Positions 1 through 57,584 of a stretch of 64,000 bases of DNA are shown here, piece after piece. The notes below the pieces were generated by a model. That model worked only from the letters and a program-made list of their open reading frames with translations. It did no database searches and was not told where the DNA came from. The stretch lies in the NCBI GenBank assembly GCA_041663565.1, contig JBAYMJ010000004.1, positions 582 to 64,581 of the forward strand, given 5' to 3'. This DNA comes from Candidatus Micrarchaeia archaeon. Lineage in GTDB: Archaea > Micrarchaeota > Micrarchaeia > Norongarragalinales > CAINOH01. A program made the position numbers and the translations under genes. Every line of letters begins with the position of its first letter. Within the stretch, counting starts at the first letter, position 1.

Positions 1-3000
1 CGGCGGGTTCGCGCTGACGGAATGATAGCTGGCCTGTGAAAGGCCTGTTCCGCTGTAAACCGCGAAAAACAGGCTCTGCCCGCCGTAGAGGAACCACGAA
101 TTCCCGTCGTTGCCGCACCCGTCCGGGCAGCCTATGTGCTTGTCTATTATGCCGCCCCCGGACGCGGACGCGGGCTTGACCCAAGCCTGCACCGTGAGCG
201 CGGGAGTTCCGTCGAGGCCACCCGAATCAGGAACCTCGAGGTAATCCTTCGCCCCGTCAAACCTCATCGCGCTGCCCCACTTGCCGTCAGGAGTCCAGTC
301 GGCGTGCCTCGCCCTGCCCTCGCTGTACAGGCTGGACACTTCATAAGCCGAAAGGCCGCGCGAATAAAGCGCGACCTCGTCTATGGTGCCGTTGAAGAAG
401 TGGCCCGTCGGGTTGTAAGCGCCTATGTACTTGGACCGGTTGTAGTACGGGAAAAGCATCGGGTACCCGGCGTACTGCCTTGCGAAGAACACGCCGTTGC
501 GGTAAACGTCAACAGTGCCCGCGGGGTAGTCGGCCACGACAACTATGTGGACGAGCGTGTTGTCAAGCCCCGTGAAGTAGCCCGGAAAGTAAAGCCCGTA
601 ATAATACGTGCCGTTGCCGTACTGGAAGCACAGGTGGTCGCCGGCCGCGTTGCGGTAGACGAACAGGTAACCCCCGACGCCCTGCGCGTCGTCGCTGAGA
701 AGCGTCTGGTAGCTCGCCGACAGGCTGCTGTTTACCCACATCGACATCGTGAGCGTCGAGTTGCCCGGGCTGCTTATGGCAAACGGGCCCGTTGCAAGGT
801 AGTCGTTCAGCCCGTCGAAGCGCAGGCCGTAGCCGGACTTTCCTGCAACCGAGTCCGCGTGCCTGGCCCTGCCTGAATTGTACCGGGAGAGGACTTCGGA
901 AGCGGAAAGGGATTTGTTGTATATTCCGACTTCATCGATTGTACCGTTGAAATAGGTGTTCCGGTTGTATTGGCCGCCAACACGCAAAGTTGTTGAGACG
1001 ATGATGTTTGCAGTCGCTGATGTTTCGTTTGCCAGTAGTCCGTTAACATAGATGCGAACCTTCGAGTGGTCGTAAGTCCCGGCAATGTGATACCACGTGT
1101 TTTCCGTTGGCGTAATGCTGAACTTTGCGCTACCCGCACCATAAAAGAGGGCAGTCATCGTGTTGTCTGAAAAGTACTCAAGCAAAAATCCCTTGTCGCC
1201 GTCGTCTCCGCCGTACGCCACAACGATTTGGCTGCTGTTTGGAACCTTGTTCCATTTTACCCACGCGCAGACTGAAACGTTATTCTGCCCGTATGGGATT
1301 GCGCCTGAACGTAAGTCCAAGTCAACGTAATCATTGACACCGTCGAACAATATGCCGGCGCCGCTCTTTCCTGCCACCCAATCGGCGTGCTTGGCCTGGC
1401 CGGCATTGTACTGCGCAAGGACTTCGGAAGCCGAAAGCGAACGGCTTGCAACCATTACCTCGTCAATCGAACCGTTGAAATACATCCACTTGCCCCACGA
1501 CGGCGAGTATTCCGCGCCGATGTAGAGGTTGAGCGCGTTCGTCGGCAGCGGGATAGGAAGCGTGCCGTTGGAGGCCTGGATGCCGTCAACGTAACCCACC
1601 ACCGAAAGGCCATCTATTGTCATAGTGTAGTGATGCCAGCCGGACTGGGTGAAAAACAGGGGGTTGTAGGCGCCATTGTATGACGTATAAAGTATCACGC
1701 TGCTGCCACTACCCGCAGTTGCAATGGACCATTGCCCGTTGTCTATCCCATACTTGCTTATTATCCCGTTGCCCCACGACTCTGCCTGCACGCCGGGATT
1801 CATCCACCACGAGACGGACATCTTGCTCGAGAGATTGATGGATGAAGAGGCTGCGACCACCGCATAGTCATTGACACCATCAAACGAGACACCCAGGCCA
1901 GCTTTTCCGGTCGTCCAGTTGCAGTTGGTGACTCCTGACCCGCCGTTCATGTTGTAGCACGTGGCGTTATTTGCGTATACGCCCTTGTCGTAAGCCGTGT
2001 TGCCCGCATTCTCATCCATATGAAGAAGCAATGCGGTATTCCCATAGAGCTTTCCATTATTGAGGTTGGTGCTTCCATCGGCAATTGAAGTCGGATCTGC
2101 CTCTTCCATGTGCAGGAGGAGCGCAGTATTCCCATAGAACCTTCCGTTGTTGTGGTTGACGCTCTCGTCCGTGATGTTCGCCGAATCATCGTCCTCCATG
2201 CGCAAAAGAAGCGCGGTGTTCCCGTAGATTGTTCCGTTGTTGCCGTAGCGCGAGACGTCAACTACCTTGGCTGCGGTGTCACCGATTGCTGCCATGTCGT
2301 CGAAGTTGTACGCAAGCACAAGCGAGTCGTTGTACATCGTGTAGTTCGCGCCGTTCCAGTTGAACACCACCTGCGAAGGCACTGTCGTGTTCTGGACGCT
2401 CGCAGTTATCGTTATGTTGTTTATGAACACCGTGGGAGCGTTCAGCGGGGTCTGGGGGAGGAACAATATGCCGTTGAACGTGACGCTGCGCGAATCGCTC
2501 GACACGTTCGACCAGTTGGAGCCGGAAAGCGACGAGGCGAAAAGCCTGTAACCGTAAGCCCCGCTGTCCACGCCCTGCCGCACCGAAGTGAACAGCCACC
2601 GGTCAGGAGCGTACTTTGCGAGGTTGGAATAATACTGCTGCTGTATCTCGGCTGCGGAAAGCGAACGGTTCCACACGCGCACCTCGTCTATGGAGCCGTT
2701 GAAATGGCGGTTGTAAGCGGTCCCGTCGTACCAGCCGACCATCGTGTGCTCTGGTATCAACACCTTCGAAGCCGCGGGACTGGAATCGCTACCCACCAAC
2801 GAGCCATCCACGTACACGTTGGCGATGATACCGTTGCCTGTCGCGGCTATGTGGTGCCATCCCGGCGCATATGCATTGTTCACCTGTATCAGAGTGCCCC
2901 AGGTGGACCCGTCGGCAGACTCCACGAAGCCCTGCAAGCTGTTGCTGAAAAAGAGACTGTACGGACCGTAACCGTTGCTCAACTTTATCTTAGAAAGCAC

Positions 3001-6000
3001 GTCAGCATTGCCCGAACCAGCATAATTGACCCACGCGGAGACTGTGATGGGCCCGGTGACGTTCAGGCCGGCCGAATCGCCACTGTCAACATAATCATCA
3101 ACTCCGTCAAACCTCAAAGCCGAGCCCCACTTGCCGCTCGGGCCCCAGTCCGCATGCTTTGCTTTCCCGGCGTTGTAGTGCGCAGCGACTTCGGAGACGG
3201 TTAGCGCCTTGGAATAGACTCCAATCTCGTCAAGCGAGCCGTTCAGGTTGTACGCCGCATAGTTCAGCTTGCCTATCAGCATGCTGTTGGACTCCGACAG
3301 GTTGGTGATGTTGCCTGATGAACTCTTATTGGTGCCGACTGGGACGCCGTTGACGTAAAGTTGTGCCCTGTGGCTTGCGAAGGAATAGGCTGCGGCTACG
3401 TGCGTCCACTGGTCAAGCGGGATTATGTCGCCTGTGCTTGCCGGCCAATAGTCCTCATAATTCGTGCCGTCGCCAAGAATAAGTGATGGAACGTACGGGT
3501 GGCTGGAACCGCTGCCGGATATCACAAACGCATATCCGCTAGCCTTGTCCGCCCCTGCGACATTGGTTTTCTTCGCCAGTATTCCAGGGTTGACCGCGGG
3601 GTTGTCGTTGCGCTTGACCCACGCCTCCAGCGTGAAGTCGTTGGTGGACAGGGTGAGACTGTTGCTGTTGGGTATGACCACGTAATCGTCGTTGCCATCA
3701 AAGGAAATACCTGTGCCGGTTTTTCCGGCAACCCAGCTACAGTTGGTAGTTCCGGAGCCGCCGCCCATGTTGTAGCAGGTTCCGTTGTTGCGCCAGACGC
3801 TTTCGTCGTAAGTCGTGTTGCCTGCGTTCTCGTCCATGCGCAAAAGCAGCGCGGTGTTCCCGTAAATCGTGCCGTTGTTGCCGTAGCGCGATACGTCAAC
3901 TACCTTGGATGCCGAGTCGCCGATTGCCGATTGGTCGTCAAAGTTGTACGCAAGCACAAGCGAGTCGTTGTACATCGTGTAGTTGGAAGAGTTCCAGTTG
4001 AAGATGATGGCCGAAGGCTGCGAAACGTTCTGGATGCTCGCATTGATGGTTATGTTGTTGATGTAGACGGTCGAGGCGTTCGCCGGGGTCGGCGAGAGGA
4101 ACCGGATTGCATTGAACGTGACGGACCGCAATTCGCTGGACGAGGTGTTCCCGACGGGATCGCGCGTCCACAGGAAATAATTGTAGGCCCCGCTGTCGAC
4201 GTCCTGAGGTGAATAAGTAAAGAGCCACCTGCCGGGCGCGTACTTTGCGAGGTTGGAATAATACTGCTGCTTGATTTCATCTGCCGAGAGCGAACGGTTC
4301 CAAATCCGAACCTCGTCGATTGAGCCGGTGAGTACTAGCGAACCGGTGAAATACGCGCCGACAGAAGCCTTGTCAATCCCCGAAAGCCCGCCCCATTGCC
4401 CGTCGTTGCTTGCCTGGCCTACGGACAGCGGCTTGCTTGCCCCATCGAGATACAAGGTAGTGTAAGTGCCGTTGTACGTGGCTGCTATCTGGTGCCAGTT
4501 GCCATCGAAGACCTCCGACCGCGAGGAAGTAACGTAGCCAAGCCGAGGCCCGGAGGACTGCCTGCCGAGCATGATAAGCTCTCCGCTCAGTGTGCTGGTG
4601 CAGCCGTCGCCTATGCATATGTCCTGGTGCTGTGTAACATCCCCGGAATTGCCTATGCCGAAAAGGGTCGCGGTGGTTTCGGACGCGGACTTGACCCACA
4701 GCGAGACCGTTGCAGGCGCTGCGAAATTCAATGCCGAAGCGTTGGAAACAAGCACGCGGCCATATGCGCCGTCAAGCCTCAACGCCGAATTCCATTTTCC
4801 GTTCGGGTCCCAGTTTGCGTGCTTTGCCTTCCCGGCATTGAACTGGTTGAGGATTTCAGCCGCGGAAAGCGAGCGGTTGACAACCATGGCCTCATCAATG
4901 GAGCCGTTGAAGTAAGCCCCGTAATTCCAACCCGCACCCAAAGAAACGCGAACATAAGTCGGCGCAGTGCCGCCAGACGAGCCCAGATAGGCTCCGTCAA
5001 CGTAGAACTTGTAAGTGGTGCCTTCGCGCGTTCCCATCAAGTGGTGCCACTGGCCGTCGTTTTGCGGCGCGGTGCCCAATACATTGCCTGTCGGCCCCCC
5101 GCTGTTATCGGTAATGAACGTGCCGTTGGTGTACAAGCAAATCTGGAATCCCGCCCCGCTCGCCTGCGCCAAGTCCATTATCCTCTGCTGATAGGCCTGC
5201 GCCGCGGAGGCTTTCACCCATGCACCGAAAGAGAAGTCGCCAGTTATATTCGCGGAAAACGTGTTTGACAGCACATAGTCGTTGACTCCGTCAAAACTGA
5301 TTCCGCTACCGCTCTTTCCCGCAACCCAATTGCAGTTGGTGACTCCCGAACCTCCGCTCATGTTGTAGCACGTGCCGTTGTTCCTGTAAGCGCTCTCGTC
5401 ATAAGTGGTGTTTCCGGAGTTCTCGTCCATGTGCAAAAGCAGCGCGGTGTTCCCGTAAATCGTGCCGTTGTTCCCATACTTGCTCGTGTCCACCACTTTC
5501 CCCACGGTGTCCCCAATCGCGGAAGCGTCGTCGAAGTTGTACGCAAGCACAAGCGAGTCGTCATAAAGCGTGTAGTTCGTGCCGTTCCACGAGAACGTCG
5601 CGTTCGAAAACGTCTGGCTCGCGACGGTCGTGTTGTCGATGGTCGCGTTGAACATGGCGTTGGCCGAAAACACTGTCGAGCCACTGTCCGGGGTCGGCGG
5701 GGCGAACTGTATGAGGCTCGGGTAGTTTGTCGCATTCGGCGTAGGTGAAGGCGACGGGCTGGCGGTGGGCTGTGAGGACAGCACGTAGACGGACGCGGGA
5801 ATCTCGATGCTCTGGTTGCCGAGCTCGCCCTGCACGGTCACGTTGACTATCCCCGAATAAATGCCGTACGCGGAGTCACCGACAGTAAAATTTACAAAAA
5901 AAGGGACGCTTGAGTGGGCGGAAAGCGCAAAGCTCGAGCTCGGGCAGGAGATTGTCACGTCGCTCGCGGTCCAGTTGCACTGCACGGTCACGTTCGAGCT

Positions 6001-6492
6001 GGTGCTTGAAAGGCTGGACAGGGTTATGGGTTCATTATGGGTTTCACTGAGAAAAAGCGTGGTGTCAATCGCGCTCACGTTTGCGTAGGCGAGCCACCTG
6101 CCGATGGACACGGTCGCGCCGTCGTTCTCGACCAAAAACTCGTACGTGCCCGGCCTGCCTGGGAGCGAGCCGGTCACCTGGAACGGGAACGTCTCTATGT
6201 AGTCGGACCGCCCGGCGTGAACCTTGATGTAGTAGGGGTAGACCCCGGACAGGGACGCGTTGTAGGAGCGCGGCAGCGTGACCAGGGACGTTTTCCGCGC
6301 GCCGATGCCCTGGGCGTAGACTTCGCGGGCCGCGTTGCCTATGTCGGTAGCGGCGAGGGACGCCTGCAGCTCGGCCTTGCGGGTTGACAGGGCGCTGCCC
6401 TGCTCGTTGGAAAGTGTGACTGTCACAAGGAGGACGAGCAGGGCGATGCCCAGTATCATCATAAACTCCAAAGTAGTCTGGCCGCGACGCAT
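1..6492 (-). CDS. Giant (>2160 aa in window, 3'-truncated by window edge) secreted/surface protein with archaeal class-III (pilin-type) signal peptide and repeated LamG/ConA-like lectin modules
   Basis: Hand translation of minus strand from the ATG at 6492 gives MRRGQTTLEFMMILGIALLVLLVTVTLSNEQGSALSTRK (RGQ-TTLEF class-III signal peptide). Further hand-translated stretches give LamG-like motifs: ALRFDGVDDYVDSGDSAGLN (from the reverse complement of 3061-3120), GSLDEIGVYSKALTVSEVAAHYNAGKAKHADWGPSGKWGS (3121-3240), IYGNTALLLHMDENSGNTTYDESAYRNNGTCYNMSGG (~5344-5460), and NTALLLRMEDDDSANITDESVNHNNGRFYGNTALLLHMEEADPTSIADGSTNLNNGKLYG (2041-2220). The frame is antisense to all the plus frame-1 pseudo-ORFs. 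No minus-frame ORF with codon ends congruent to 0 mod 3 is listed in 1-6500, which is consistent with one open frame running off the window. Confidence 0.8.
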   Translation of the reverse strand, partial: MRRGQTTLEFMMILGIALLVLLVTVTLSNEQGSALSTRKAELQASLAATDIGNAAREVYAQGIGARKTSLVTLPRSYNASLSGVYPYYIKVHAGRSDYIETFPFQVTGSLPGRPGTYEFLVENDGATVSIGRWLAYANVSAIDTTLFLSETHNEPITLSSLSSTSSNVTVQCNWTASDVTISCPSSSFALSAHSSVPFFVNFTVGDSAYGIYSGIVNVTVQGELGNQSIEIPASVYVLSSQPTASPSPSPTPNATNYPSLIQFAPPTPDSGSTVFSANAMFNATIDNTTVASQTFSNATFSWNGTNYTLYDDSLVLAYNFDDASAIGDTVGKVVDTSKYGNNGTIYGNTALLLHMDENSGNTTYDESAYRNNGTCYNMSGGSGVTNCNWVAGKSGSGISFDGVNDYVLSNTFSANITGDFSFGAWVKASAAQAYQQRIMDLAQASGAGFQICLYTNGTFITDNSGGPTGNVLGTAPQNDGQWHHLMGTREGTTYKFYVDGAYLGSSGGTAPTYVRVSLGAGWNYGAYFNGSIDEAMVVNRSLSAAEILNQFNAGKAKHANWDPNGKWNSALRLDGAYGRVLVSNASALNFAAPATVSLWVKSASETTATLFGIGNSGDVTQHQDICIGDGCTSTLSGELIMLGRQSSGPRLGYVTSSRSEVFDGNWHQIAATYNGTYTTLYLDGASKPLSVGQASNDGQWGGLSGIDKASVGAYFTGSLVLTGSIDEVRIWNRSLSADEIKQQYYSNLAKYAPGRWLFTYSPQDVDSGAYNYFLWTRDPVGNTSSSELRSVTFNAIRFLSPTPANASTVYINNITINASIQNVSQPSAIIFNWNSSNYTMYNDSLVLAYNFDDQSAIGDSASKVVDVSRYGNNGTIYGNTALLLRMDENAGNTTYDESVWRNNGTCYNMGGGSGTTNCSWVAGKTGTGISFDGNDDYVVIPNSNSLTLSTNDFTLEAWVKRNDNPAVNPGILAKKTNVAGADKASGYAFVISGSGSSHPYVPSLILGDGTNYEDYWPASTGDIIPLDQWTHVAAAYSFASHRAQLYVNGVPVGTNKSSSGNITNLSESNSMLIGKLNYAAYNLNGSLDEIGVYSKALTVSEVAAHYNAGKAKHADWGPSGKWGSALRFDGVDDYVDSGDSAGLNVTGPITVSAWVNYAGSGNADVLSKIKLSNGYGPYSLFFSNSLQGFVESADGSTWGTLIQVNNAYAPGWHHIAATGNGIIANVYVDGSLVGSDSSPAASKVLIPEHTMVGWYDGTAYNRHFNGSIDEVRVWNRSLSAAEIQQQYYSNLAKYAPDRWLFTSVRQGVDSGAYGYRLFASSLSGSNWSNVSSDSRSVTFNGILFLPQTPLNAPTVFINNITITASVQNTTVPSQVVFNWNGANYTMYNDSLVLAYNFDDMAAIGDTAAKVVDVSRYGNNGTIYGNTALLLRMEDDDSANITDESVNHNNGRFYGNTALLLHMEEADPTSIADGSTNLNNGKLYGNTALLLHMDENAGNTAYDKGVYANNATCYNMNGGSGVTNCNWTTGKAGLGVSFDGVNDYAVVAASSSINLSSKMSVSWWMNPGVQAESWGNGIISKYGIDNGQWSIATAGSGSSVILYTSYNGAYNPLFFTQSGWHHYTMTIDGLSVVGYVDGIQASNGTLPIPLPTNALNLYIGAEYSPSWGKWMYFNGSIDEVMVASRSLSASEVLAQYNAGQAKHADWVAGKSGAGILFDGVNDYVDLDLRSGAIPYGQNNVSVCAWVKWNKVPNSSQIVVAYGGDDGDKGFLLEYFSDNTMTALFYGAGSAKFSITPTENTWYHIAGTYDHSKVRIYVNGLLANETSATANIIVSTTLRVGGQYNRNTYFNGTIDEVGIYNKSLSASEVLSRYNSGRARHADSVAGKSGYGLRFDGLNDYLATGPFAISSPGNSTLTMSMWVNSSLSASYQTLLSDDAQGVGGYLFVYRNAAGDHLCFQYGNGTYYYGLYFPGYFTGLDNTLVHIVVVADYPAGTVDVYRNGVFFARQYAGYPMLFPYYNRSKYIGAYNPTGHFFNGTIDEVALYSRGLSAYEVSSLYSEGRARHADWTPDGKWGSAMRFDGAKDYLEVPDSGGLDGTPALTVQAWVKPASASGGGIIDKHIGCPDGCGNDGNSWFLYGGQSLFFAVYSGTGLSQASYHSVSANPP
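2195..2480. repeat. Approx. 300-nt intragenic/intergenic DNA repeat (copy 1 of 4) encoding the GNTALLLHM(D/E)E…NNGTCYNM linker module
   Basis: Shared strings such as aagttgtacgcaagcacaagcgagtcgttgta and gcgcggtgttcccgta…gccgttgttgccgtagcgcga recur at ~2200, ~3770, ~5430 and ~15080. Boundaries are approximate. Confidence 0.55.
3768..4055. repeat. Repeat copy 2 (about 88% identical to 15082-15362 by eye)
   Basis: Direct by-eye comparison of 3768-4055 with 15082-15362. Confidence 0.6.
5415..5700. repeat. Repeat copy 3
   Basis: Same conserved strings (ccatgtgcaaaagcagcgcggtgttcccgtaaatcgtgccgttgtt…aagttgtacgcaagcacaagcgagtcgtc). Confidence 0.55.
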
Positions 6493-6585: not shown

Positions 6586-9339
6586 CTACTTGCACGCATC
6601 CGCAGTCGGGTGGTCGGCACAGACTATTTCATTCAACTGCCCTATCTGCAACTTCTGCTTTGCATTGTCGGACTTCATCTGTTCTATCTGCGCCTGCTGC
6701 GCCGCCTTGTCCGCCTTGAGCGCGTCGATTTCCTCCTGCTGTTCCTGCATCGCGCTGACAATCACGGGCGCGATGCGCTCGTAGGATATCCCCTTGTAGC
6801 CCTTGTCGTCGGTAGTCACCAATTCAGGAATGATTTTCTCAACGTCCTGCGCGATGAAACCGACTTGAGTTCCATCGGTGAAGCCCATGTTCGGGTACTC
6901 ACTCGTCCGCCACTCGAAATTCACAGGCTTGAGCGCCATTACCTTGTCGAGCGATGCCGAAGGCAGGAGCGAAGTCACGTTCTTCTTCCAGCGCGCATCA
7001 GAACCCGACCACGAACCCGAGGTGACCCAAGCGGTGCCTGCGACGGTCAGAGTATAGCTGGGGGTTGTTGTGCCGATGCCGACGTTGCCGCTCTTCAGGG
7101 TCATCGTATCCAAATAATTCTGCGAACCCAAACGCAACTCCCAAAGGGTGCTGACAAACTGCGAGGTTATTCTTCCAAGTTCATAAGAGCCTTGGTTGAA
7201 GCTGATTTTTGTCCCGGTCCCACTGCCTTCGCTGTTGGGATTGTCCAACCTCAATAACTCTACTACCGCGCCGCTTGACGTCTTGGCCAGGTGCAGCGGC
7301 GCGCCAGGGCTGGCGGTGCCTATGCCCACGCTGCCATTTAGGATTGACGAGCCATCCACGCGCAATGTTGCCGCAGGCACCTGGTAGCGTATGATCACGA
7401 TTCCCGAACCGCCTGCCCCGCCGGAACCGCCGGTGCCGCTTGCGGGCCATCCGCCACCTCCGCCTCCACCGCCACGGTTAGCTATGCCTGCAGTTCCATT
7501 GCTTCCGCCGGTCGCCCCGGCTCCGCCGCCGTCCATCGCAGCCCCGAAAGAGGTATAACCGCCGCCTCCACCGCCGCCTGCATAAGTAAGCGAGACCCCG
7601 GAAATGGAATAAGCCAACCCATAGCCGCCGGACCCGTTGCCTGAAGTACCGCCTGCAGTGCCCGCGCTGCCGGCACCGCCACCTCCACCGCCCACGTATG
7701 GCAATGCGGACCCTCCGCCAGCGCCGCCTGCATTACCCTGGGAACCGGTTCCGCCGGCAGCACTCGTACCGCCGCCTCCGCCCGAACCGCCGTTTCCTCC
7801 GGCATAACTAGATTTTGCGCCATAACCGCCGCCGATTGCGGTGATTGGACCGAACGTGGAATTGTTGCCGGAGCTTCCGCTGTTGCCGCCCTGACCATCC
7901 GCGTTTCCGAGACCGCCCGCACCACCGGCACCCACAGTAACAGTATACGGCGTCGTAGTTATGGCATAAGACGCGTTGTACAGGACTCCGCCACCGCCAC
8001 CACCGCCTATGCCATTACCGTTCCCGTACCCGCCGCCTCCACCACCACCGCCTGCGACCACGAGGTATTGCACGCTGGTGACTCCTACGGGGGGGATGAA
8101 CGTGCTGTTGCCGACTGTCGTGAACTTGTGAACGCGGTAAGCGACGCCGTTCTCAACAATGTCATAGATGCTGTCGCCTCCAAAACCCATCGGCCCTGCA
8201 ACGTGAAGCATCTCGCTTGAGACAGGCGTGCCGATGCCTACGCTGCCGTTGAGGAAGGTCGTTCCGTTCACGTGCAGCATTGCCAGGGGCCTTGTTGTCC
8301 CTATGCCGACGCTGCCTTGAAGAACCGCAGCAGGACCGGATATCGGGTAGCGGATTATCACTACCCCTGAACCGCCGTAACTGTTGCCGGCGCCGTTGCC
8401 GGTGCCAGCACCGCCATTGCCCAACCCGTTGGTGCCTGATGCGCCAACTGTGCCGTCGGAGCGGCCGTAACCTGCGTTACCTCCGGTGGCATAAGTTACC
8501 GGGACGCCGCTGATGCTGCTGGTGACGCCAATCCCGCCAAGACCCATCGTGTTCTGGCCGAACTGGCCTGGCCCGCCGGCACCGCCGCCACCGCCACCGC
8601 GGTCGTTGCCGCCATACCAGCCGCCGTCTCCGCCGTTGTTGCCCTGGCCCGCAATCCCGTACCCTCCGAGAGACTGGCTCATGTCGCTGAAGATTGTTCC
8701 CGCACCGCCGCCCGAGCCGCCGGTATTGGCGCGCCCGCCGCAATGCGTCACTCCGCCACCGCCGCCCATTGCGGTGATGTTTGCAAAAGTCGAATTCCCG
8801 CCGTTGCCTGCTGCGCCATAACCACCCGCGCCTACTGATACGGTATACGCCCCGGACACGCCGGTAAGGACCCCAGTAAGCATACCCCCCGCTCCGCCAC
8901 CGCCACCCGCGGTGTTGACCTGCGCGCCTGCTCCGCCGCCACCGCCTGCGACGACAAGGTATTCGACTTGGGTGACTCCAGTAGGCGCGGTGAACGTGCT
9001 GTTGCCAACGGTCGTGAACTTGTGCACTCGGTAAGTCGTGCCGTTTTCAACAATGTCATAGATGCTGTCCCCGCCGGAACCTCCCGACACGTTGATTGGA
9101 GGAACGACCTGAAGGGTCGCGTTGGGGCTTGCTGTGCCGATGCCTACGCGGCCGGAAGCGGAGTTGACAAAGAGCGAACCATTGCCCGCGGAAAAGTCGC
9201 TGGTTGAGTTGAACTGGCCCTGCACAAGAAGGCTTCCTGCTGACGCGGGCTGGAAAAGCAAGACCGCACAAAGAAGAAGCAAAGACGCGCACGTAGGCAA
9301 GGAAACCAAATACCTACAGCCACTTGCACCAACCACCAT
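6586..9339 (-). CDS. Secreted Gly-rich tail-fibre-like protein with C-terminal peptidase S74 (intramolecular chaperone auto-processing) domain
   Basis: Sec-type signal peptide (…LLFQPASAGS). N-terminal phage tail-fibre-like repeat (GRVGIGTASPNATLQVV). Two copies of the motif IVENGTTYRVHKFTTVGNSTFTAPTGVTQVEYLVVAGGGGG, each followed by a poly-Gly tract and GSGIVIIRYQ. C-terminus SDARWKKNVTSL…LKPVNFEWR…GFIAQDVEKIIPELV…GYKGISYERIAPVIVSAMQEQQEEIDALKA matches the S74 chaperone domain consensus. Confidence 0.8.
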   Translation of the reverse strand: MVVGASGCRYLVSLPTCASLLLLCAVLLFQPASAGSLLVQGQFNSTSDFSAGNGSLFVNSASGRVGIGTASPNATLQVVPPINVSGGSGGDSIYDIVENGTTYRVHKFTTVGNSTFTAPTGVTQVEYLVVAGGGGGAGAQVNTAGGGGGAGGMLTGVLTGVSGAYTVSVGAGGYGAAGNGGNSTFANITAMGGGGGVTHCGGRANTGGSGGGAGTIFSDMSQSLGGYGIAGQGNNGGDGGWYGGNDRGGGGGGAGGPGQFGQNTMGLGGIGVTSSISGVPVTYATGGNAGYGRSDGTVGASGTNGLGNGGAGTGNGAGNSYGGSGVVIIRYPISGPAAVLQGSVGIGTTRPLAMLHVNGTTFLNGSVGIGTPVSSEMLHVAGPMGFGGDSIYDIVENGVAYRVHKFTTVGNSTFIPPVGVTSVQYLVVAGGGGGGGGYGNGNGIGGGGGGGVLYNASYAITTTPYTVTVGAGGAGGLGNADGQGGNSGSSGNNSTFGPITAIGGGYGAKSSYAGGNGGSGGGGGTSAAGGTGSQGNAGGAGGGSALPYVGGGGGGAGSAGTAGGTSGNGSGGYGLAYSISGVSLTYAGGGGGGGYTSFGAAMDGGGAGATGGSNGTAGIANRGGGGGGGGWPASGTGGSGGAGGSGIVIIRYQVPAATLRVDGSSILNGSVGIGTASPGAPLHLAKTSSGAVVELLRLDNPNSEGSGTGTKISFNQGSYELGRITSQFVSTLWELRLGSQNYLDTMTLKSGNVGIGTTTPSYTLTVAGTAWVTSGSWSGSDARWKKNVTSLLPSASLDKVMALKPVNFEWRTSEYPNMGFTDGTQVGFIAQDVEKIIPELVTTDDKGYKGISYERIAPVIVSAMQEQQEEIDALKADKAAQQAQIEQMKSDNAKQKLQIGQLNEIVCADHPTADACK

Positions 9340-9383
9340 ACTGCATTCCCATTAGCTTTCAGCAAACCCGAATAATACTGCGC

Positions 9384-11954
9384 TCATTTGCAGGCATCCG
9401 CAGCAGGGTGGTCAATGCACACAAGCGCCTTCAGCTGTTCTATCTGCAACTGCTGCGCAGCCTTGCCAGCCTTGAGCGCGTCGATTTCCTCCTGCTGTTC
9501 CTGCACCGCCTTCACAATTACCGCGGAGAGCTGCCCATAGGCAATCCCTTTCCTGCCATCCTCGCCGGAAACGACTTCGGGAACCACTTTCTCAAGTTCC
9601 TGCGCAACGAACCCGACCTGGGAAGAGTTGTCGGACTTCATCAGGTAGCTTCTTGGCTGCATCAACATCAAATCCGCCAATCCGTAGTGGATGTCCCTTA
9701 CGTCCTTCTTGTAACTTGCATCGGACGCGCTGGTCCACGCGCCTGCGGAAGAGAGGTAGCCTTCGTTCGCTCCGTTGTAGAAGTACAGGTTTCCCGCATA
9801 ACCCAGGTATATTTGGCGATACAGTCCTTCCGACGAATCCTGTATCTCTAGGCCGGTGTAAGGCAGGCTCTTGTTGTTGACCACGTGAAGTGCCGCGGAC
9901 GGGCTTGACGTGCCGATGCCTACGCTGCCGTTGAAGAACGACTGCCCGTTCACGTGCAAGGAAGCCGCGGGACTGGATGTGCCGATGCCGACGCTGCCTT
10001 GGAAGACCGCTGCCGACCCGACTTGATAGCGCACGATTACGATTCCTGAACCGCCATTGCCGCTAACTTCACTAACGCCCCCGCCGCCCTCGCCGCCGGA
10101 ACCGGTATTATCGAGGCCCGACACGCCATTCCCGCCTGCACTCCCGTTGCCGCCGGCTGCGTATGTAACCGGGGTTCCTGAAATATAATTTACATTTCCC
10201 GCGCCACCGAGACCACCGCTAGGATATCCGACGTATCCTGCATGGCTGCTGCCACCGCCACCGCCACCGGAGTTGTTTCCGGGTGCACCAACAATCGCCG
10301 CACCGCCAGCATAACCTTGACCGGCTATTCCAGAACCGCCGGGGGCGCTGTCACGAGCGCCTCCACCGCCCCCAGAACCACCAGCCTGACCATTCCAATC
10401 AATACTATATTCCCCGCCGCGGCCGCCACCCTTCGCTATAATCGTATCAAAAACGGAATCGCTGCCGCTGGTTGCACCACCACCCCAGCCTGCACCGGAT
10501 CCTCCGGCGCCGACAGTTATTATTTTTGCCCCGTTGACGATGAGTGAACCTGAGAGATATCCGCCTGCACCGCCACCACCACCATATCCCCCGCCTCCGG
10601 CGCCGCCGCCAGCAACTACGAGGTATTCAACTTGCGTGACGCCATCCGGCGGGGTGAACGTGCTGTTGCCAATGGTCGTGAACTTGTGGACCCGGTAAGC
10701 CACGCCGTTCTGTACTATTTCATAGACGCTGTCGCCTCCGGACGCCATTGGACCGGAAACAACGTGAAGCTTCGCCTTCGGACTCGCCATCCCTATGCCG
10801 ACGCTGCCGTTGAAGACTGACGTACCCGCCACATGCAACGTAGCCAAAGGATTCGCTGTGCCTATGCCGACGCTGCCTTGGAAGACTGCCGCGGGTCCTG
10901 ATAGTTGGTAGCGTATGATCACGATGCCGGAACCACCATTGCCGCCAACGCCGCCACCCGCCGGAGCTAAGGCAGTAGACCCGCCTCCTCCGCCACCGGT
11001 ATTTGCATCTGCGTTTGAACCGCTCACTGTGGAACGCCCCGTCCCACCGCCACCGATGCCACCTGGCGTAGTTAGCCCGGCAGTTTCGCCTGCCCCTCCG
11101 CCTCCACCGCCTGCATAGTATGTCGGAGTACCTGAAATCGAGTAGGACAGGCCTATTCCGCCAGCTCCGGTAGTTGCACCAGAAACTCCCGCGCCACCCG
11201 CGCCGCCACCGCCACCGCTCCGAGTGCCACCAGTAGCAGCATCTCCAATTGCGCCATTATTGCCCTGGCCAGCGACGCCCTTACCATAGGAATACAAATT
11301 ATCGTAATTATTGGGACGACCACCAGCGCCGCTGCCGCCATCCTCAATATCGGAACGGCCACCGGCGTTGTAACCCGGAGCACCACCCCCGCCTATTGCC
11401 GTCTGAGAGTTAAAGCTACTGTTGGACCCTTTGCTTCCAAAAGCATCATTTGCATTGAACTCGGCTACGGTTGCAGGCCTGCCGGCGCCACCCGCACCTA
11501 CAACAACAGGATAGCTTGTTCCTGCAGTTACAAAGGAAGAGGAATTGTAAATCAGGCCGCCTGCTCCGCCTCCACCACCATACCACGAAGCACCTCCACC
11601 GCCACCCGCAACAATAAGGCATTCGACAGAAGTAACGCCACTAGGCGGAGTGAATGCGCTGGTGCCGACTGCTGTGAACACGTGGACGCGGTAGGTCGTG
11701 TTGTTGACTACGGTGTCATAGACTCGGTCCCCGCCAAAACCGCTGGAACCGCTAACGACATGAAGAGTCGCATTTGGGCTTGACGTGTTGATGCCTACGC
11801 GGCCGGAAGCGGAGTTGACAAAGAACGAACCATTGCCAACGGAAAAGTCGCTGGTCGAGTTGAGCGCACCCTGCACGAGCAGGCTTCCTGCGGACGCGGG
11901 CTGGCACAGGCAAATGACAAGGAACACGGAAATAATCCAAAGGCCAGATTTCAC
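9384..11954 (-). CDS. Paralogous secreted Gly-rich tail-fibre-like protein with C-terminal peptidase S74 chaperone domain
   Basis: N-terminus is near-identical to the 917-aa neighbour (SAGSLLVQGALNSTSDFSVGNGSFFVNSASGRVGINTSSPNATLHVV). It has the same duplicated YRVH.FT…GVT.VEYLVVAGGG motif and Gly-rich tracts. C-terminus SYKKDVRDI…GFVAQELEKVVPEVV…GIAYGQLSAVIVKAVQEQQEEIDALKA. Confidence 0.8.
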   Translation of the reverse strand: MKSGLWIISVFLVICLCQPASAGSLLVQGALNSTSDFSVGNGSFFVNSASGRVGINTSSPNATLHVVSGSSGFGGDRVYDTVVNNTTYRVHVFTAVGTSAFTPPSGVTSVECLIVAGGGGGASWYGGGGGAGGLIYNSSSFVTAGTSYPVVVGAGGAGRPATVAEFNANDAFGSKGSNSSFNSQTAIGGGGAPGYNAGGRSDIEDGGSGAGGRPNNYDNLYSYGKGVAGQGNNGAIGDAATGGTRSGGGGGAGGAGVSGATTGAGGIGLSYSISGTPTYYAGGGGGGAGETAGLTTPGGIGGGGTGRSTVSGSNADANTGGGGGGSTALAPAGGGVGGNGGSGIVIIRYQLSGPAAVFQGSVGIGTANPLATLHVAGTSVFNGSVGIGMASPKAKLHVVSGPMASGGDSVYEIVQNGVAYRVHKFTTIGNSTFTPPDGVTQVEYLVVAGGGAGGGGYGGGGGAGGYLSGSLIVNGAKIITVGAGGSGAGWGGGATSGSDSVFDTIIAKGGGRGGEYSIDWNGQAGGSGGGGGARDSAPGGSGIAGQGYAGGAAIVGAPGNNSGGGGGGSSHAGYVGYPSGGLGGAGNVNYISGTPVTYAAGGNGSAGGNGVSGLDNTGSGGEGGGGVSEVSGNGGSGIVIVRYQVGSAAVFQGSVGIGTSSPAASLHVNGQSFFNGSVGIGTSSPSAALHVVNNKSLPYTGLEIQDSSEGLYRQIYLGYAGNLYFYNGANEGYLSSAGAWTSASDASYKKDVRDIHYGLADLMLMQPRSYLMKSDNSSQVGFVAQELEKVVPEVVSGEDGRKGIAYGQLSAVIVKAVQEQQEEIDALKAGKAAQQLQIEQLKALVCIDHPAADACK

Positions 11955-12012: not shown

Positions 12013-13404
12013 CTACGTGAACCCGAGGAATATCCACTTGACAACCGTGTTGCTGTCGCACTCCGAACCGACCATCATGACCTCGACGTCGCTGTACTGG
12101 GCCGCGCGCCTTGCAATCGGATAGCCCGAGCACCAGGCCGAATACTGGAGCTGCGTAGCCATGCTTCCGACTGAAGCAGCGGAATTCGAGATGGCGTACG
12201 TCGAGCCGCCGTATGACCCTTTCAGGATGAGCAGCCCCTGGTCCAGCTGGCCTATTGACCTCCAGCCTCCGCCGCCTACGTCGATGGTCCCGCTTTGTAT
12301 TGCTGCCAAGTTGCTCTTTATGTTGCCTGCCGCCTCGATTTTTCCGCTTGAAAATATGTTGACGGGCTTGTTGCCGTTGCTGTCGGATGTCGAGAAGACA
12401 GTTGAGTCGTCGGATGTGACGGTTATGTACATGTGGTTGCCGGTGTTAAAAGTCGTAGGCGTGAACGTCCCTCCGAGAGTGGGCTCGGTGTTGTCCTGTA
12501 TGTAGTCCACGGCACCGCCCGTGCCGTTGTCAACGTAGAACGCGCCAGTTGGCATGTAACCCACCACCCCGCTTTTCCACGCGACGTAATAATCGGCAGT
12601 AGCCGAGGTCAGCGGGCTGCCTATGGTCAGGTCCGCCTGCGAGAAAGCCTGCGTCACCTGCGCGCCTGCAGCCCCAGCAGGCAGCGTGAAGCGCGCGCCG
12701 AACCTTACTGCCCACGTGTTGCCGCCGGTGTTCTCGACAAACAGCAGCCACCACTTTCCTGTTGTGCTTGCGCTGGGCTTGCGGTAGGTCACCGCGGTGT
12801 ACAGCGTGTTCTTTGCAAGCAGGAACTCGGGCGTGTTCTCAACCCCGAAATAAGCGTTGTTCGCGTCGAACCACGAAGTCCCGTCAGTGTGCGGCAACGG
12901 GTGACCCGTCAGGCCGTAGGACGTGTTGCTCCGGACCTGCAGGCTTGCAGACGGGCTTATGATGCCGATGCCCACGTTGCCGGTGCCGTTCTGTATGGTG
13001 ACCCGGTCTGCAATACCTGACTCCGTAACCCTCAGCGTGCCGTCGTAATCCATCCGCACTATGTGCCATTTTAGCGAACCGGATGCATTGCCGAAGAATA
13101 TTACCGAGTTGTTCCACGCGTCGGGACTCACCCTAATAGACCCGTTCACGTCAAGCCTAACTATGGGGCTCACCGTACCGACACCGACGTTGCCGGAAGT
13201 CGCGTTCACGAAAAACGAAATCGAACCGTTGCCAGCAGAAAAGTCGCTGCTTGAGTTGAGCGCACCCTGCACGAGCAGGCTTCCGGCGGACGTGACCGGG
13301 CAGAGGAGGATTGCGCCAAGGAGAAGGAACGCGAAAAAAGCGGGAGCGTCGGCTGCCAAGACGCCGCGCGCCGCATTACCGCCCAAAACAGTTCTTGCAA
13401 TCAT
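12013..13404 (-). CDS. Secreted protein sharing the fibre-like N-terminal module (SAGSLLVQGALNSSSDFSAGNGS…GNVGVGTVSP) but with a distinct C-terminal region
   Basis: 463-aa ORF. Signal-peptide-like N-terminus, and N-terminal motif paralogous to the two S74 proteins. No S74 domain. Confidence 0.65.
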   Translation of the reverse strand: MIARTVLGGNAARGVLAADAPAFFAFLLLGAILLCPVTSAGSLLVQGALNSSSDFSAGNGSISFFVNATSGNVGVGTVSPIVRLDVNGSIRVSPDAWNNSVIFFGNASGSLKWHIVRMDYDGTLRVTESGIADRVTIQNGTGNVGIGIISPSASLQVRSNTSYGLTGHPLPHTDGTSWFDANNAYFGVENTPEFLLAKNTLYTAVTYRKPSASTTGKWWLLFVENTGGNTWAVRFGARFTLPAGAAGAQVTQAFSQADLTIGSPLTSATADYYVAWKSGVVGYMPTGAFYVDNGTGGAVDYIQDNTEPTLGGTFTPTTFNTGNHMYITVTSDDSTVFSTSDSNGNKPVNIFSSGKIEAAGNIKSNLAAIQSGTIDVGGGGWRSIGQLDQGLLILKGSYGGSTYAISNSAASVGSMATQLQYSAWCSGYPIARRAAQYSDVEVMMVGSECDSNTVVKWIFLGFT

Positions 13405-35394: not shown

Positions 35395-35534
35395 CGGGCC
35401 CGACGGGATTCGAACCCGCGACATCTTGATTGCTTCTCGACCCGCTTGCGAAACTAAAACGATTGCAAAAAAACAAATCTCGCAAGAAGGAGGATTAAAA
35501 GTCAAGCGCTCTAGCCAGACTGAGCTACGGGCCC
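35395..35534 (-). tRNA. tRNA-Lys (anticodon UUU) with ~66-nt intron at the canonical 37/38 position
   Basis: Reverse complement reads GGGCCCGTAGCTCAGTCTGGCTAGAGCG CTTGA CTTTTA [intron ATCCTCC…GAGAAGCA] A TCAAG ATGTC GCGGGTTCGAATCCCGT CGGGCCC G, with acceptor, D, anticodon and T arms all pairing. Confidence 0.8.
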
Positions 35535-50737: not shown

Positions 50738-50748
50738 GGTGACAAGCG

Positions 50749-51633: not shown

Positions 51634-51636
51634 GAC

Positions 51637-57505: not shown

Positions 57506-57584
57506 TTTCTCACGCTCATCTATGCTTGTGTTCCCAGTGCCCGCCGGCCCCGGTGCCCGCGCCATTATATTCTTCTTCCCATGC

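What the first reader, a model, noticed from the sequence alone, without database searches (positions are those of the whole stretch)
6586..11954. Tandem paralogous Gly-rich proteins with duplicated YRVH.FT…VEYLVVAGGGGG motif and S74 chaperone C-termini in an archaeon
Each protein carries two copies of a conserved ~45-aa motif followed by long poly-Gly tracts and GSGIVIIRYQ. Both end in a canonical peptidase-S74 intramolecular chaperone (SD.RWKKNV…L.PV.F.W…GFIAQ.VEK..PE.V…GY.GI.Y..…QEQQEEIDALKA). Such domains are characteristic of phage tail spikes and fibres and of bacterial surface fibres. Two chromosomal copies in an archaeal surface-protein array is unusual.
Basis: partly seen in the sequence, partly recalled or inferred. 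Interest (0 to 1): 0.6.

Follow-up and report, generated by a model that had tools for sequence, protein, structure and literature searches.

The report
Phage-type adhesin fibres in a DPANN archaeon
Two neighbouring genes of a tiny symbiotic (Micrarchaeia) archaeon encode secreted surface fibres built from virus-type receptor-binding and self-cleaving assembly modules, most like the prey-recognition fibres of the predatory bacterium Bdellovibrio, so they are good candidates for how this archaeon grips its host.

Summary
ORFs 6586-9339(-) (917 aa, "A") and 9384-11954(-) (856 aa, "B") each carry two PF21722 Gly_rich_2 domains (E about 1e-41) and a C-terminal PF13884 Peptidase_S74 domain (58 and 41 bits; cut-off 22). 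The SDxxxK Ser/Lys dyad is intact: A S780/K785, B S744/K749. It is invariant in 60 relatives.

AF2 models plus fold search show two things. The Gly-rich domain has the fold of phage receptor-binding proteins (Pam3 gp24, Bxb1 tail tip, 259 viral models). The C-terminus has the fold of the MyRF and endosialidase intramolecular chaperones.

The closest cellular relatives are the Bdellovibrio MAT fibres; the shaft profile hits Bd2133 at E=9e-23.

The genes are chromosomal, not viral. They have Sec signal peptides and about twofold enrichment of N-glycosylation sequons. They sit in a same-strand cluster D-C-B-A-E flanked by pilin-like LamG proteins. Related Micrarchaeia genomes hold larger arrays with shuffled modules and S74 or C-type-lectin ends.

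Best reading: S74-matured trimeric adhesin fibres, probably for attachment to a host or a surface. NCBI already labels B "tail fiber domain-containing protein", and S74 proteins occur in other DPANN and CPR genomes. This is a new variant of a known kind, not a new kind.

The parts
6586..9339 (-). Gene A, 917 aa. Order of modules: Sec signal peptide, N-module, Gly_rich_2 #1, linker, Gly_rich_2 #2, beta-helix shaft, S74 chaperone.
   Evidence: ORF. Pfam. The ATG start and extended N-terminus are conserved in homologue P0011.
9238..9339 (-). A signal peptide (residues 1-34), with predicted cleavage at ...QPASA|GSLLVQG.
   Evidence: This is the only hydrophobic segment in the protein. The A-x-A motif is shared with B, C and relatives. 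No signal-peptide predictor was run.
9070..9237 (-). A mature N-terminal module (residues 35-90). It is conserved in A, B, C and in all paralogue types of related genomes. It is the presumed cell-proximal anchor.
   Evidence: 57-67% amino-acid identity among A, B and C. It is the best-conserved DNA patch, at 87%. It is shared by S74, FGE-sulfatase and DUF2341 paralogues.
8332..9069 (-). A Gly_rich_2 domain #1 (residues 91-336).
7369..8175 (-). A Gly_rich_2 domain #2 (residues 389-657). This is the domain that was modelled.
   Evidence: AF2 pLDDT 93.6 and pTM 0.92. Foldseek matches to the Bxb1 tail tip and the Pam3 fibre. Viral models reach TM up to 0.86.
7003..7368 (-). A beta-rich shaft (residues 658-779) with two GxVGIGTxxPxxxL loops. 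It is homologous to the Bdellovibrio MAT beta-helix domains.
   Evidence: The profile hits Bd2133 (9e-23), Bd3182 (1.2e-12) and Bd1334 (1.4e-10). AF2 predicts strands here.
6589..7002 (-). A S74 intramolecular chaperone (residues 780-917): an alpha/beta core, a 57-residue terminal helix and a C-x8-C loop. Ser780 is at 7000-7002 and Lys785 at 6985-6987.
9384..11954 (-). Gene B, 856 aa, with the same architecture as A. The signal peptide is at 11889-11954.
   Evidence: NCBI accession MFA6329305.1.
10893..11729 (-). B Gly_rich_2 domain #1 (residues 76-354).
10011..10733 (-). B Gly_rich_2 domain #2 (residues 408-648).
9387..9725 (-). B S74 chaperone (residues 744-856). Ser744 is at 9723-9725 and Lys749 at 9708-9710.
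12013..13404 (-). Gene C, 463 aa. It is a third fibre paralogue with the same signal peptide and N-module, two GxVGIGTxxP loops, no Gly_rich_2 and no S74. Its central domain occurs inside an S74 fibre (P0003) in a related genome.
13436..16198 (-). Gene D, 920 aa. It has a type IV pilin-like (class III) signal peptide, '...KARGQSSTEFLLL', and two LamG_3 domains.
   Evidence: LamG_3 at 1e-42; Class_IIIsignal at 0.064, which is sub-threshold. The motif was read directly from the sequence.
1..6492 (-). Gene E, more than 2164 aa, running off the left end of the window. It has a class III signal peptide, 'MRRGQTTLEF', and eight LamG_3 domains. It is a paralogue of D.

Best explanation
A and B are chromosomally encoded, Sec-secreted, probably N-glycosylated cell-surface fibres of a Micrarchaeia (DPANN) archaeon. 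They are an archaeal counterpart of the Bdellovibrio 'mosaic adhesive trimer' (MAT) fibres.

Proposed mechanism:
1. The signal peptide is removed at ASA|G.
2. Three chains are brought into register by the C-terminal S74 intramolecular chaperone, whose long terminal helices form a coiled coil.
3. The chaperone templates folding of the preceding beta-helix shaft. The GxVGIGTxxPxxxL loops are the shaft's capping elements.
4. Once the trimer is formed, Ser780 (A) or Ser744 (B), activated by Lys785 or Lys749, cleaves its own peptide bond. This releases the 138-aa or 113-aa chaperone.
5. The mature fibre stays on the cell through the N-terminal module shared by A, B and C. It displays two TNF-like/polyglycine receptor-binding domains per chain, plus the freshly exposed shaft tip.
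6. These bind surface structures of a partner cell or a substrate.

The paralogue family diversifies by swapping modules.

Shown here: domain identities, the intact dyad, predicted folds, the non-viral chromosomal context, the mosaicism and the conserved N-module. Inferred: trimerisation, cleavage, glycosylation, surface retention and the ligand.
For: Domains: PF21722 twice plus PF13884 in both proteins.

Dyad: SDxxxK aligns with phage 8jov and MyRF 7dc3. S, D and K are invariant in 60 relatives. In Bdellovibrio Bd3182 the same motif was shown experimentally to self-cleave at S782, and the cleavage is blocked by S782A (PMC10769870).

Folds: the C-terminal model (S74 part pLDDT above 90, 57-residue terminal helix) matches the MyRF ICA domain (4e-6), the Bdellovibrio fibres and the endoNF chaperone 3gw6. 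The shaft profile hits Bd2133 at 9e-23, Bd3182 at 1e-12 and Bd1334 at 1e-10. The Gly-rich model (pLDDT 93.6) matches the Bxb1 tail tip (3e-7) and the Pam3 fibre gp24 (2e-5), and 259 viral models. In Pam3 gp24 this domain is the receptor-binding tip (PMC9608196).

Secretion and surface location: the N-terminus is the only hydrophobic segment and carries an AxA site. N-glycosylation sequons are enriched about twofold, with p about 1e-3.

Cellular rather than viral: the neighbours are housekeeping genes. No close relative lies on viral contigs. The arrays are conserved in related 1.2-Mb genomes.

MAT-like logic: a constant N-module carries S74, C-type-lectin (FGE-sulfatase) or other ends, and the modules are shuffled between paralogues.

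Adhesion context: the genes are flanked by pilin-like LamG proteins D and E. Such proteins are proposed to mediate host interaction in Micrarchaeota (PMC5498576).
Against: There is no experimental evidence for secretion, trimerisation, cleavage or binding.

AF2 was run on monomers only, so the trimer is inferred from homologues.

In phages the glycine-rich domain sits at the fibre tip. Here two copies sit in mid-chain, upstream of a shaft and S74, so their geometry and role may differ.

No cell-anchoring mechanism was identified. There is no C-terminal transmembrane segment or sorting signal, so the proteins might simply be released.

The host of this MAG, and whether it is an episymbiont at all, is unknown.

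The homology of the N-module to the Bdellovibrio MAT N-domain was not tested.
Confidence: 0.6

Rival explanations
1. The genes are tail-fibre genes of an integrated or degraded archaeal virus, not cellular genes.
For: Both module types are typical of viruses. PHROGs gives tail-fibre families for the C-termini and phrog_2295 for the Gly-rich domains. There are 259 viral structural matches, including Halorubrum phage HF2. An IS605 OrfB gene lies at 21005-22174.
Against: No capsid, portal, terminase, tail or integrase gene was seen among the neighbours scanned. The locus ends at a GHMP kinase and lies among aIF2-gamma, Kae1, AspRS and His-biosynthesis genes. All three fibres have Sec signal peptides, which virion proteins do not need. 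The array is conserved and expanded in related 1.2-Mb chromosomes. Only one distant match was found on viral contigs. GC content across the locus (0.59-0.60) is within the window's range.
Confidence: 0.04
2. They are secreted or surface-coat proteins with a general role, such as binding matrix, biofilm or environmental polysaccharide, or structural decoration of the envelope. On this reading they are not specific host-recognition adhesins.
For: The same evidence for secretion and glycosylation applies. No anchor was found. The same C-terminal module occurs in very diverse bacteria, such as Omnitrophota, Zixibacteria and Bacteroidota, that are not all symbionts.
Against: Paralogue expansion with tip swapping and mosaic recombination is the pattern seen in receptor-binding proteins under diversifying pressure. 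The Gly-rich fold is known from receptor-binding tips. The genes are linked to LamG and pilin-like adhesins.
Confidence: 0.22
3. The fibres are accessories of a type IV pilus-like filament. On this reading D or E (class III signal peptides) is assembled by the FlaI/PilC-type machinery encoded at 49-53 kb, and A, B and C dock on that filament through their shared N-module rather than on the cell envelope.
For: The gene order D-C-B-A-E is tight, with gaps of 31-93 nt, all on one strand. D and E carry prepilin-like N-termini. A FlaI-like ATPase and two T2SSF proteins lie in the same window. The array-then-giant-LamG-gene order recurs in L004. The MAT paper also raises a possible interplay with type IV pili.
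Against: The class III signal matches are below Pfam cut-offs. The pilus genes are about 33 kb away. Pilins of 920 aa or more than 2164 aa would be very unusual major subunits. No interaction evidence exists. This is a refinement of the best explanation rather than an exclusive rival.
Confidence: 0.1
4. The S74 domain works as in eukaryotic MyRF: trimerisation-dependent cleavage frees the N-terminal part from a membrane-tethered C-terminal part.
For: The best single-sequence and fold matches are to the MyRF ICA domain.
Against: No transmembrane segment follows the S74 domain. The proteins end 138 or 113 residues after the Ser, in a helix plus a Cys loop. The N-terminus is a secretory signal, not a cytosolic domain.
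Confidence: 0.02

Closest known systems
Bdellovibrio bacteriovorus MAT (mosaic adhesive trimer) fibres, S74 subgroup, e.g. Bd3182 (PMC10769870)
   Same: Both are cell-encoded, about 900-1100 aa, and have a signal peptide. Both have a family-wide conserved N-terminal module. The beta-helix shaft with V-G-G/N-pi-x-x-P-x-x-x-L loops is homologous at the sequence level. Both end in an S74 domain with SDxxxK. In both, multi-paralogue families exchange S74 ends for other tips, including a C-type-lectin fold.
   Different: The host here is an archaeon with no outer membrane, and the N-module is much shorter (about 45-56 aa against about 130 aa). Two PF21722 glycine-rich domains are inserted in mid-fibre; the word 'glycine' does not occur in the main text of the MAT paper. 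The genes are arranged in tandem next to pilin-like LamG genes. No experimental data exist for the archaeal proteins.
Phage tail-fibre and tail-spike C-terminal intramolecular chaperone domains (endosialidase K1F 3GW6, S16 gp37 6F45, phi29 gp12 3GUD)
   Same: PF13884 match, SDxxxK dyad, terminal helix, and position after a beta-helical stalk.
   Different: These proteins are not part of a virion. They have a secretory signal. They carry an extra conserved C-x8-C loop at the very end in this subfamily, found in 14 of 60 relatives.
Glycine-rich receptor-binding domains of phage fibres: Pam3 gp24 (7YPX/7YFW), Bxb1 9D93 chains Qa/Qb (probably the gp33 'brush' domains; the chain assignment was not checked), S16 gp38
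   Same: The fold is a beta-sandwich plus a lattice of extended Gly-rich motifs. Each domain has 9-12 Gly-dense motifs separated by variable segments, as in the 12-motif lattice of gp24.
   Different: The domain is present twice per chain and is internal rather than terminal. No separate chaperone gene such as gp25 is seen. Sequence identity to the solved structures is only 22-27%.
Eukaryotic MyRF ICA domain (7DC3)
   Same: It is the best single-sequence and fold match for the S74 part, and it shares the upstream GRVGINTxxP loop.
   Different: MyRF is a membrane-tethered transcription factor. These proteins have no transmembrane segment after the domain.
LamG-protein expansions linked to type IV pilus loci in Micrarchaeota ('Ca. 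Mancarchaeum' Mia14; PMC5498576)
   Same: The flanking genes D and E are of this kind, and that paper proposes that such proteins act in host interaction.
   Different: In the passages I retrieved, that paper lists PKD, beta-propeller, CARDB and LamG surface proteins and does not mention Gly_rich_2/S74 fibres.

Membership tests
Peptidase S74 / C-terminal intramolecular chaperone (PF13884) | Match to the family HMM above the curated cut-off | tested here: met
   A scores 58.3 bits and B 40.6 bits against a cut-off of 22.
Peptidase S74 / C-terminal intramolecular chaperone (PF13884) | Catalytic Ser at the cleavage site with Lys five residues downstream (SDxxxK) | tested here: met
   A has S780/K785 and B has S744/K749. 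They align with 8jov and MyRF. S, D and K are invariant in 60 relatives.
Peptidase S74 / C-terminal intramolecular chaperone (PF13884) | Chaperone fold with a terminal helix, placed directly after a beta-helical stalk | tested here: met
   In the AF2 model the S74 part has pLDDT above 90, with a helix at query residues 198-254. Foldseek matches 7dc3 and 3gw6. The stalk is homologous to Bd2133 and Bd3182. This is evidence from a predicted monomer only.
Peptidase S74 / C-terminal intramolecular chaperone (PF13884) | Trimerisation-dependent autoproteolytic release of the domain | not testable with these tools
   It needs expression of wild type against the Ser-to-Ala mutant.
Gly_rich_2 (PF21722) / phage glycine-rich receptor-binding domain | HMM match above the cut-off | tested here: met
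   141.7 and 145.7 bits against a cut-off of 24.3, with two stretches in each protein.
Gly_rich_2 (PF21722) / phage glycine-rich receptor-binding domain | Fold shared with solved phage fibre tips | tested here: met
   9d93_Qb at 3e-7 and 7ypx_A at 2e-5, with TM 0.5-0.6. Viral models reach TM up to 0.86 with rmsd 2.2 A.
Gly_rich_2 (PF21722) / phage glycine-rich receptor-binding domain | Polyglycine-II / PPII lattice geometry | tested here: inconclusive
   About 70% of the residues are neither helix nor strand in a high-confidence model. The ALK/LTK glycine-rich domains appear only as weak hits.
Gly_rich_2 (PF21722) / phage glycine-rich receptor-binding domain | Receptor binding by the variable distal loops | not testable with these tools
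   Only the pattern of conserved Gly motifs with variable spacers is seen.
Bdellovibrio-type MAT fibre family | Signal peptide and a family-wide conserved N-terminal domain | tested here: inconclusive
   A signal peptide and a conserved module of about 45-56 aa are present in all paralogue types. Homology to the roughly 130-aa Bdellovibrio N-domain could not be tested, because no such sequence was at hand.
Bdellovibrio-type MAT fibre family | Beta-helix shaft with V-G-G/N-pi-x-x-P-x-x-x-L capping loops | tested here: met
   There are five such loops in each of A and B. The profile hits Bd2133 (9e-23), Bd3182 and Bd1334.
Bdellovibrio-type MAT fibre family | Paralogue family with S74 and non-S74 interchangeable tips | tested here: met
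   The window holds A and B (S74) and C (no S74). Relatives hold S74 and FGE-sulfatase (C-type-lectin) ends on the same N-module, and the modules are mosaic.
Bdellovibrio-type MAT fibre family | Surface display and binding of partner-cell glycans | not testable with these tools
   This is experimental.
Virion tail fibre (prophage gene) | Location within a block of virion and morphogenesis genes | tested here: not met
   The neighbours are pilin-like LamG proteins, a GHMP kinase and housekeeping genes. No close viral-contig relatives were found.
DGR (diversity-generating retroelement) target protein | C-type-lectin/FGE-sulfatase variable region with a cognate template repeat | tested here: not met
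   The window has no FGE-sulfatase domain and no near-identical repeats. In relatives the FGE tips exist, but no template repeat lies within +-10 kb.

The most novel reading that the evidence does not exclude
Micrarchaeia (DPANN) archaea have recruited two virus-type modules into a fast-shuffling, tandemly arrayed family of cell-surface fibres. The modules are the TNF-like/polyglycine receptor-binding domain and the S74 self-cleaving trimerisation chaperone. On this reading the fibres are the archaeal equivalent of the Bdellovibrio MAT fibres and act as the primary determinants of which host cell the episymbiont can attach to, possibly displayed together with giant pilin-like LamG proteins.
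Probability: 0.35. Interest if true: 0.75.

Novelty: new variant of a known kind. Interest (0 to 1): 0.5.

Why it matters
How DPANN archaea recognise and hold on to their hosts is largely unknown. Published candidates are mainly pili, LamG, PKD or beta-propeller surface proteins, and nanotubes.

This locus supplies concrete, testable candidates. The proteins have a predicted self-cleavage site and two predicted receptor-binding domains each, and in Bdellovibrio the equivalent fibres have been shown to locate to the cell surface and to bind prey glycans.

If confirmed, phage-style receptor-binding fibres would be a shared solution for cell-on-cell lifestyles in both prokaryotic domains. Module swapping in these arrays could then be read as a record of host-range evolution in uncultured symbionts.

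Tried and rejected
1. The genome-contig scan with protein A returned only distant bacterial S74 proteins (Bacteroidota and others). The window's lineage is not among the species representatives, so this gave no taxonomy or synteny.

2. The second cluster look-up for taxon names returned no names.

4. Model coordinates are not exposed to scripts. PPII dihedrals and the distance between the domain's termini could therefore not be measured.

5. DGR idea: relatives carry FGE-sulfatase/C-type-lectin tips ending in '...GFRCCK', as DGR targets do. However, the window has no such domain, it has no near-identical repeats, and no template-repeat-like copy lies within +-10 kb in L002. The idea is rejected for the window and left open for the relatives.

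6. Provirus reading: rejected on context and on the viral-contig scan.

7. MyRF-like membrane release: rejected because no C-terminal transmembrane segment exists.

8. Literature searches for PF21722/Gly_rich_2, for DPANN with S74 or tail fibre, and for the NCBI product names found no description of these archaeal proteins.

9. The profile of the Gly-rich domain finds no solved structure by sequence alone. Only fold comparison links it to the phage proteins.
Full report
OBSERVATION

Both are about 25% glycine.

The motif YRVH.FT...VEYLVVAGGGGG occurs twice in each protein. Each occurrence is followed by 9-12 glycine-dense motifs and closed by GSG[IV]VI[IV]RY. Pfam shows that each such unit is one PF21722 Gly_rich_2 domain, with two per protein (E=4.5e-41 for A, 2.8e-42 for B). 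Both C-termini match PF13884 Peptidase_S74 above the gathering score: 58.3 and 40.6 bits against a cut-off of 22.

The four Gly-rich domains are 48-59% identical to one another. A and B as whole proteins are mosaic. They are 71% identical across the inter-domain linker and the start of domain 2, but only 36% identical across the C-terminal third.

S74 TEST

The catalytic motif is intact: S780-DARW-K785 in A and S744-DASY-K749 in B. The codons are at 7000-7002 and 6985-6987 in A, and at 9723-9725 and 9708-9710 in B.

A single-sequence search of solved structures aligns this motif with SASDERLK of a phage tail fibre (8jov). It also aligns it with the cleavage site of the MyRF ICA domain (7dc3). 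There the deposited chain has Ala at the Ser position; that this is the inactivating mutant is my inference.

In an alignment of 60 relatives of the C-terminal module, Ser, Asp and Lys are invariant. A profile of that alignment hits S16 gp37 (1.4e-20), MyRF (6.4e-17), 8jov (1e-12) and phi29 gp12 (2.6e-4).

An AF2 model of A residues 656-917 is confident over the S74 part (pLDDT above 90). It ends in a 57-residue helix. Foldseek returns MyRF ICA (4e-6), Bdellovibrio fibre structures and the endosialidase intramolecular chaperone 3gw6 (8e-3).

WHAT THE GLYCINE-RICH DOMAIN IS

An AF2 model of A residues 389-657, built on a 30-sequence alignment, has pLDDT 93.6 and pTM 0.92. About 70% of its residues are neither helix nor strand.

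No solved structure is found by sequence profile, but fold comparison does find some. Foldseek against the PDB gives the mycobacteriophage Bxb1 tail tip (9d93 chains Qb/Qa, E=3e-7 and 1.5e-6, TM up to 0.60) and the cyanophage Pam3 fibre gp24 (7ypx/7yfw, 2e-5 and 2.5e-3). The ALK/LTK glycine-rich domains appear as weak matches.

The Pam3 paper describes gp24 as a TNF-like beta-sandwich plus a lattice of 12 glycine-rich motifs. The variable distal ends of that lattice are proposed to bind the receptor. The authors compare it with S16 gp38 and with ALK (PMC9608196). A 2026 paper notes PPII bundles of the same kind in Bxb1 gp33 and gp29 (PMC13243192).

Against predicted viral structures there are 259 matches at E<=1e-3, with TM up to 0.86. 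They come from uncultured tailed phages, cyanophages, a pelagiphage, prasinoviruses and Halorubrum phage HF2. PHROGs places the domain in phrog_2295, of unknown function (E about 1e-86 to 1e-91), and places the C-termini in many tail-fibre families.

The family consensus alternates conserved Gly motifs with unconserved spacers.

THE SHAFT AND THE BDELLOVIBRIO CONNECTION

Each protein has five GxVGIGTxxPxxxL motifs. They flank the globular domains and precede the S74 Ser. At the DNA level this 32-nt unit occurs 12 times across A, B and C.

The profile of the C-terminal module finds, as its best solved relative, the Bdellovibrio bacteriovorus fibre Bd2133 (9e-23). Bd3182 (1.2e-12), Bd1334 (1.4e-10) and two further 'cell wall surface anchor family' fibres follow. 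All of these match the pre-S74 shaft.

The paper on these 'mosaic adhesive trimer' (MAT) proteins reports several features (PMC10769870):
- a signal peptide;
- an invariant N-terminal domain;
- trimeric beta-helix shafts with V-G-G/N-pi-x-x-P-x-x-x-L capping loops, also seen in MyRF;
- 13 members ending in S74 with SDxxxK;
- self-cleavage of Bd3182 at S782 shown experimentally, and blocked by S782A;
- 8 members with other tips, including TNF-like and C-type-lectin folds;
- surface location and glycan binding.

Searches of that paper's main text found neither 'archaea' nor 'glycine'.

CONTEXT

The window is a piece of archaeal chromosome. It encodes aIF2-gamma above the equivalog cut-off, and it gives best matches to archaeal Kae1 and tRNA-splicing endonuclease families and to an archaeal-type KaiC. 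It also encodes AspRS, phosphoglucomutase, His-biosynthesis genes and an intron-bearing tRNA. It matches a 64.7-kb contig on which NCBI names B (MFA6329305.1) 'tail fiber domain-containing protein [Candidatus Micrarchaeia archaeon]'.

A and B belong to five same-strand genes separated by 31-93 nt.
- D (13436-16198) has a prepilin-like N-terminus, KARGQSSTEF, and two LamG_3 domains.
- C (12013-13404) is a third fibre paralogue.
- B and A follow.
- E (6492 to beyond position 1, more than 2164 aa) has the N-terminus MRRGQTTLEF and eight LamG_3 domains.
E runs off the window, which is why the left 6.5 kb looked free of ORFs.

By eye, TTAAAAAG boxes precede D and E, and T-runs follow A. This suggests that D-C-B-A is one transcription unit, but it is a weak inference.

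A FlaI-type ATPase and two T2SSF/PilC-like proteins lie at 49.2-52.7 kb. LamG expansions linked to type IV pilus loci, and their proposed role in host interaction, are already described for the micrarchaeon Mia14 (PMC5498576).

EVIDENCE THAT THE PROTEINS ARE SECRETED AND CELLULAR

A, B and C each have a single hydrophobic segment, at the N-terminus, ending in ...ASA|GS or ...TSA|GS. There is no C-terminal transmembrane segment.

N-x-S/T sequons are about twice as frequent as in shuffled sequences: A has 18 against 8.3, and B has 15 against 6.8, with p about 1e-3.

The mature N-terminal module of about 45-56 aa is the best-conserved part among A, B and C (57-67% amino-acid identity, and an 87% DNA patch). 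It is shared by all paralogue types in relatives.

A scan of viral contigs found one distant S74 match only.

THE FAMILY IN RELATED GENOMES

Close relatives sit on 1.2-Mb genomes and on shorter contigs. One locus (L001-L003; OZ337364.1) has seven or eight tandem genes. Three are (DUF2341-)Gly_rich_2-FGE-sulfatase, three are Gly_rich_2-S74, and one more ends in FGE-sulfatase. L004 has the same array followed by a homologue of D and E.

The modules are shuffled. B's N-terminal 236 residues are 76% identical to one relative gene, while its S74 end is 75% identical to a different one. A's S74 end is 53-55% identical to yet others. C's central domain (residues 141-303) is 68% identical to an internal segment of the S74 fibre P0003.

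The combination PF21722 plus PF13884 is found in 11 of the best 120 hits to A. The C-terminal module alone has at least 1942 relatives. The named ones come from CPR bacteria (Minisyncoccales, Paceibacterota, Gracilibacteria), from Aenigmatarchaeota, and from Omnitrophota and Zixibacteria.

MECHANISM

What is shown:
- domain identities, the intact dyad and the predicted folds;
- sequence homology of the shaft to MAT fibres;
- secretory features, chromosomal context and family mosaicism.

What is inferred from the experimentally studied homologues:
- the S74 domain brings three chains into register and templates the beta-helix;
- the domain then removes itself by Ser/Lys-catalysed cleavage, leaving mature fibres that end at ...SWSG (A) or ...WTSA (B);
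- the shared N-module holds the fibre on the cell or on a pilus-like filament;
- the two glycine-rich domains per chain, and perhaps the exposed shaft tip, bind a ligand on another cell.

Overall confidence is about 0.6. It is about 0.9 for 'S74-terminated fibre built of phage-type modules' and about 0.5 for 'host-attachment adhesin'.

RIVALS

The provirus reading is contradicted by the gene context, the signal peptides, the conserved arrays and the viral-contig scan.

MyRF-like release from a membrane tether is contradicted by the lack of a transmembrane segment after the S74 domain.

A general matrix or surface-coat role cannot be excluded. A pilus-accessory role is a refinement of the best explanation rather than an alternative.

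A DGR link was considered because of the relatives' C-type-lectin tips. It is not supported in the window or within +-10 kb in a relative.

NOVELTY

The parts are known. Automated annotation already calls B a tail-fibre-domain protein, and S74 proteins occur in other DPANN and CPR genomes. Three things appear undescribed in the literature I could search:
- the architecture: two internal phage-type glycine-rich domains on a MAT-type shaft ending in S74;
- its occurrence as a recombining tandem array in an archaeon;
- its linkage to pilin-like LamG proteins.

I rate it a new variant of a known kind, with moderate interest. It gives concrete candidates for host recognition by DPANN archaea.

Noticed in passing
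window 1-6492 (-): A giant gene (more than 2164 aa, running off the left edge of the window) with a class III prepilin-like signal peptide, MRRGQTTLEF, and eight LamG_3 domains. It is a paralogue of D (38-46% identity). ORF listing hid it because it runs off the window.
   Followed up: partly
window 13883-13994 vs 2590-2701: A 112-nt patch is 94% identical between D and E, far above the roughly 75% identity of the rest. This suggests recent gene conversion between the two LamG genes.
   Followed up: no
window 6589-6630 and 9387-9428 (C-terminal ends of A and B): A conserved terminal loop, VC[AIL]DHPxxxxCK (C-x8-C), follows the chaperone helix. It is present in 14 of 60 relatives of the C-terminal module. 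A second flavour, CAKDxxYxWCD, occurs in other Micrarchaeia paralogues. It may be a disulphide knot. Its function is unknown.
   Followed up: partly
L001-L004 (related Micrarchaeia loci): Paralogues with the same N-module end in an FGE-sulfatase/C-type-lectin domain finishing with '...GFRCCK'. This is reminiscent of DGR variable proteins. No template repeat was found within +-10 kb, and whole genomes were not searched.
   Followed up: partly
L001/L002 16106-19846 vs L003: The third S74 fibre gene is intact in L003 and L004 (1246 aa). In L001/L002 the gene callers annotate it as a 268-aa reverse-strand gene plus a 356-aa remnant. tblastn still finds matches across the region. The difference may be strain-level disruption or merely a difference in gene calling.
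   Followed up: no
window 49241-52671 (+): A type IV pilus or archaellum-type assembly set: a FlaI-like ATPase and two T2SSF (PilC/TadC-like) membrane proteins. It lies about 33 kb from the adhesin cluster.
   Followed up: partly
window 21005-22174 (+): An IS605-family OrfB/TnpB (Cas12f-like TNB domain) gene, the only mobile-element gene noticed.
   Followed up: no
window 35395-35534 (-): A tRNA gene spanning 140 nt, presumably with an intron. Rfam found it (57 bits) but ARAGORN missed it. A tRNA-splicing endonuclease gene lies at 44831-45997.
   Followed up: no
window 61534-63447 (-): An apparent HisG-HisD fusion: ATP phosphoribosyltransferase plus histidinol dehydrogenase in one 637-aa ORF. 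A HisA-HisIE fusion-like ORF lies at 56282-57565.
   Followed up: no
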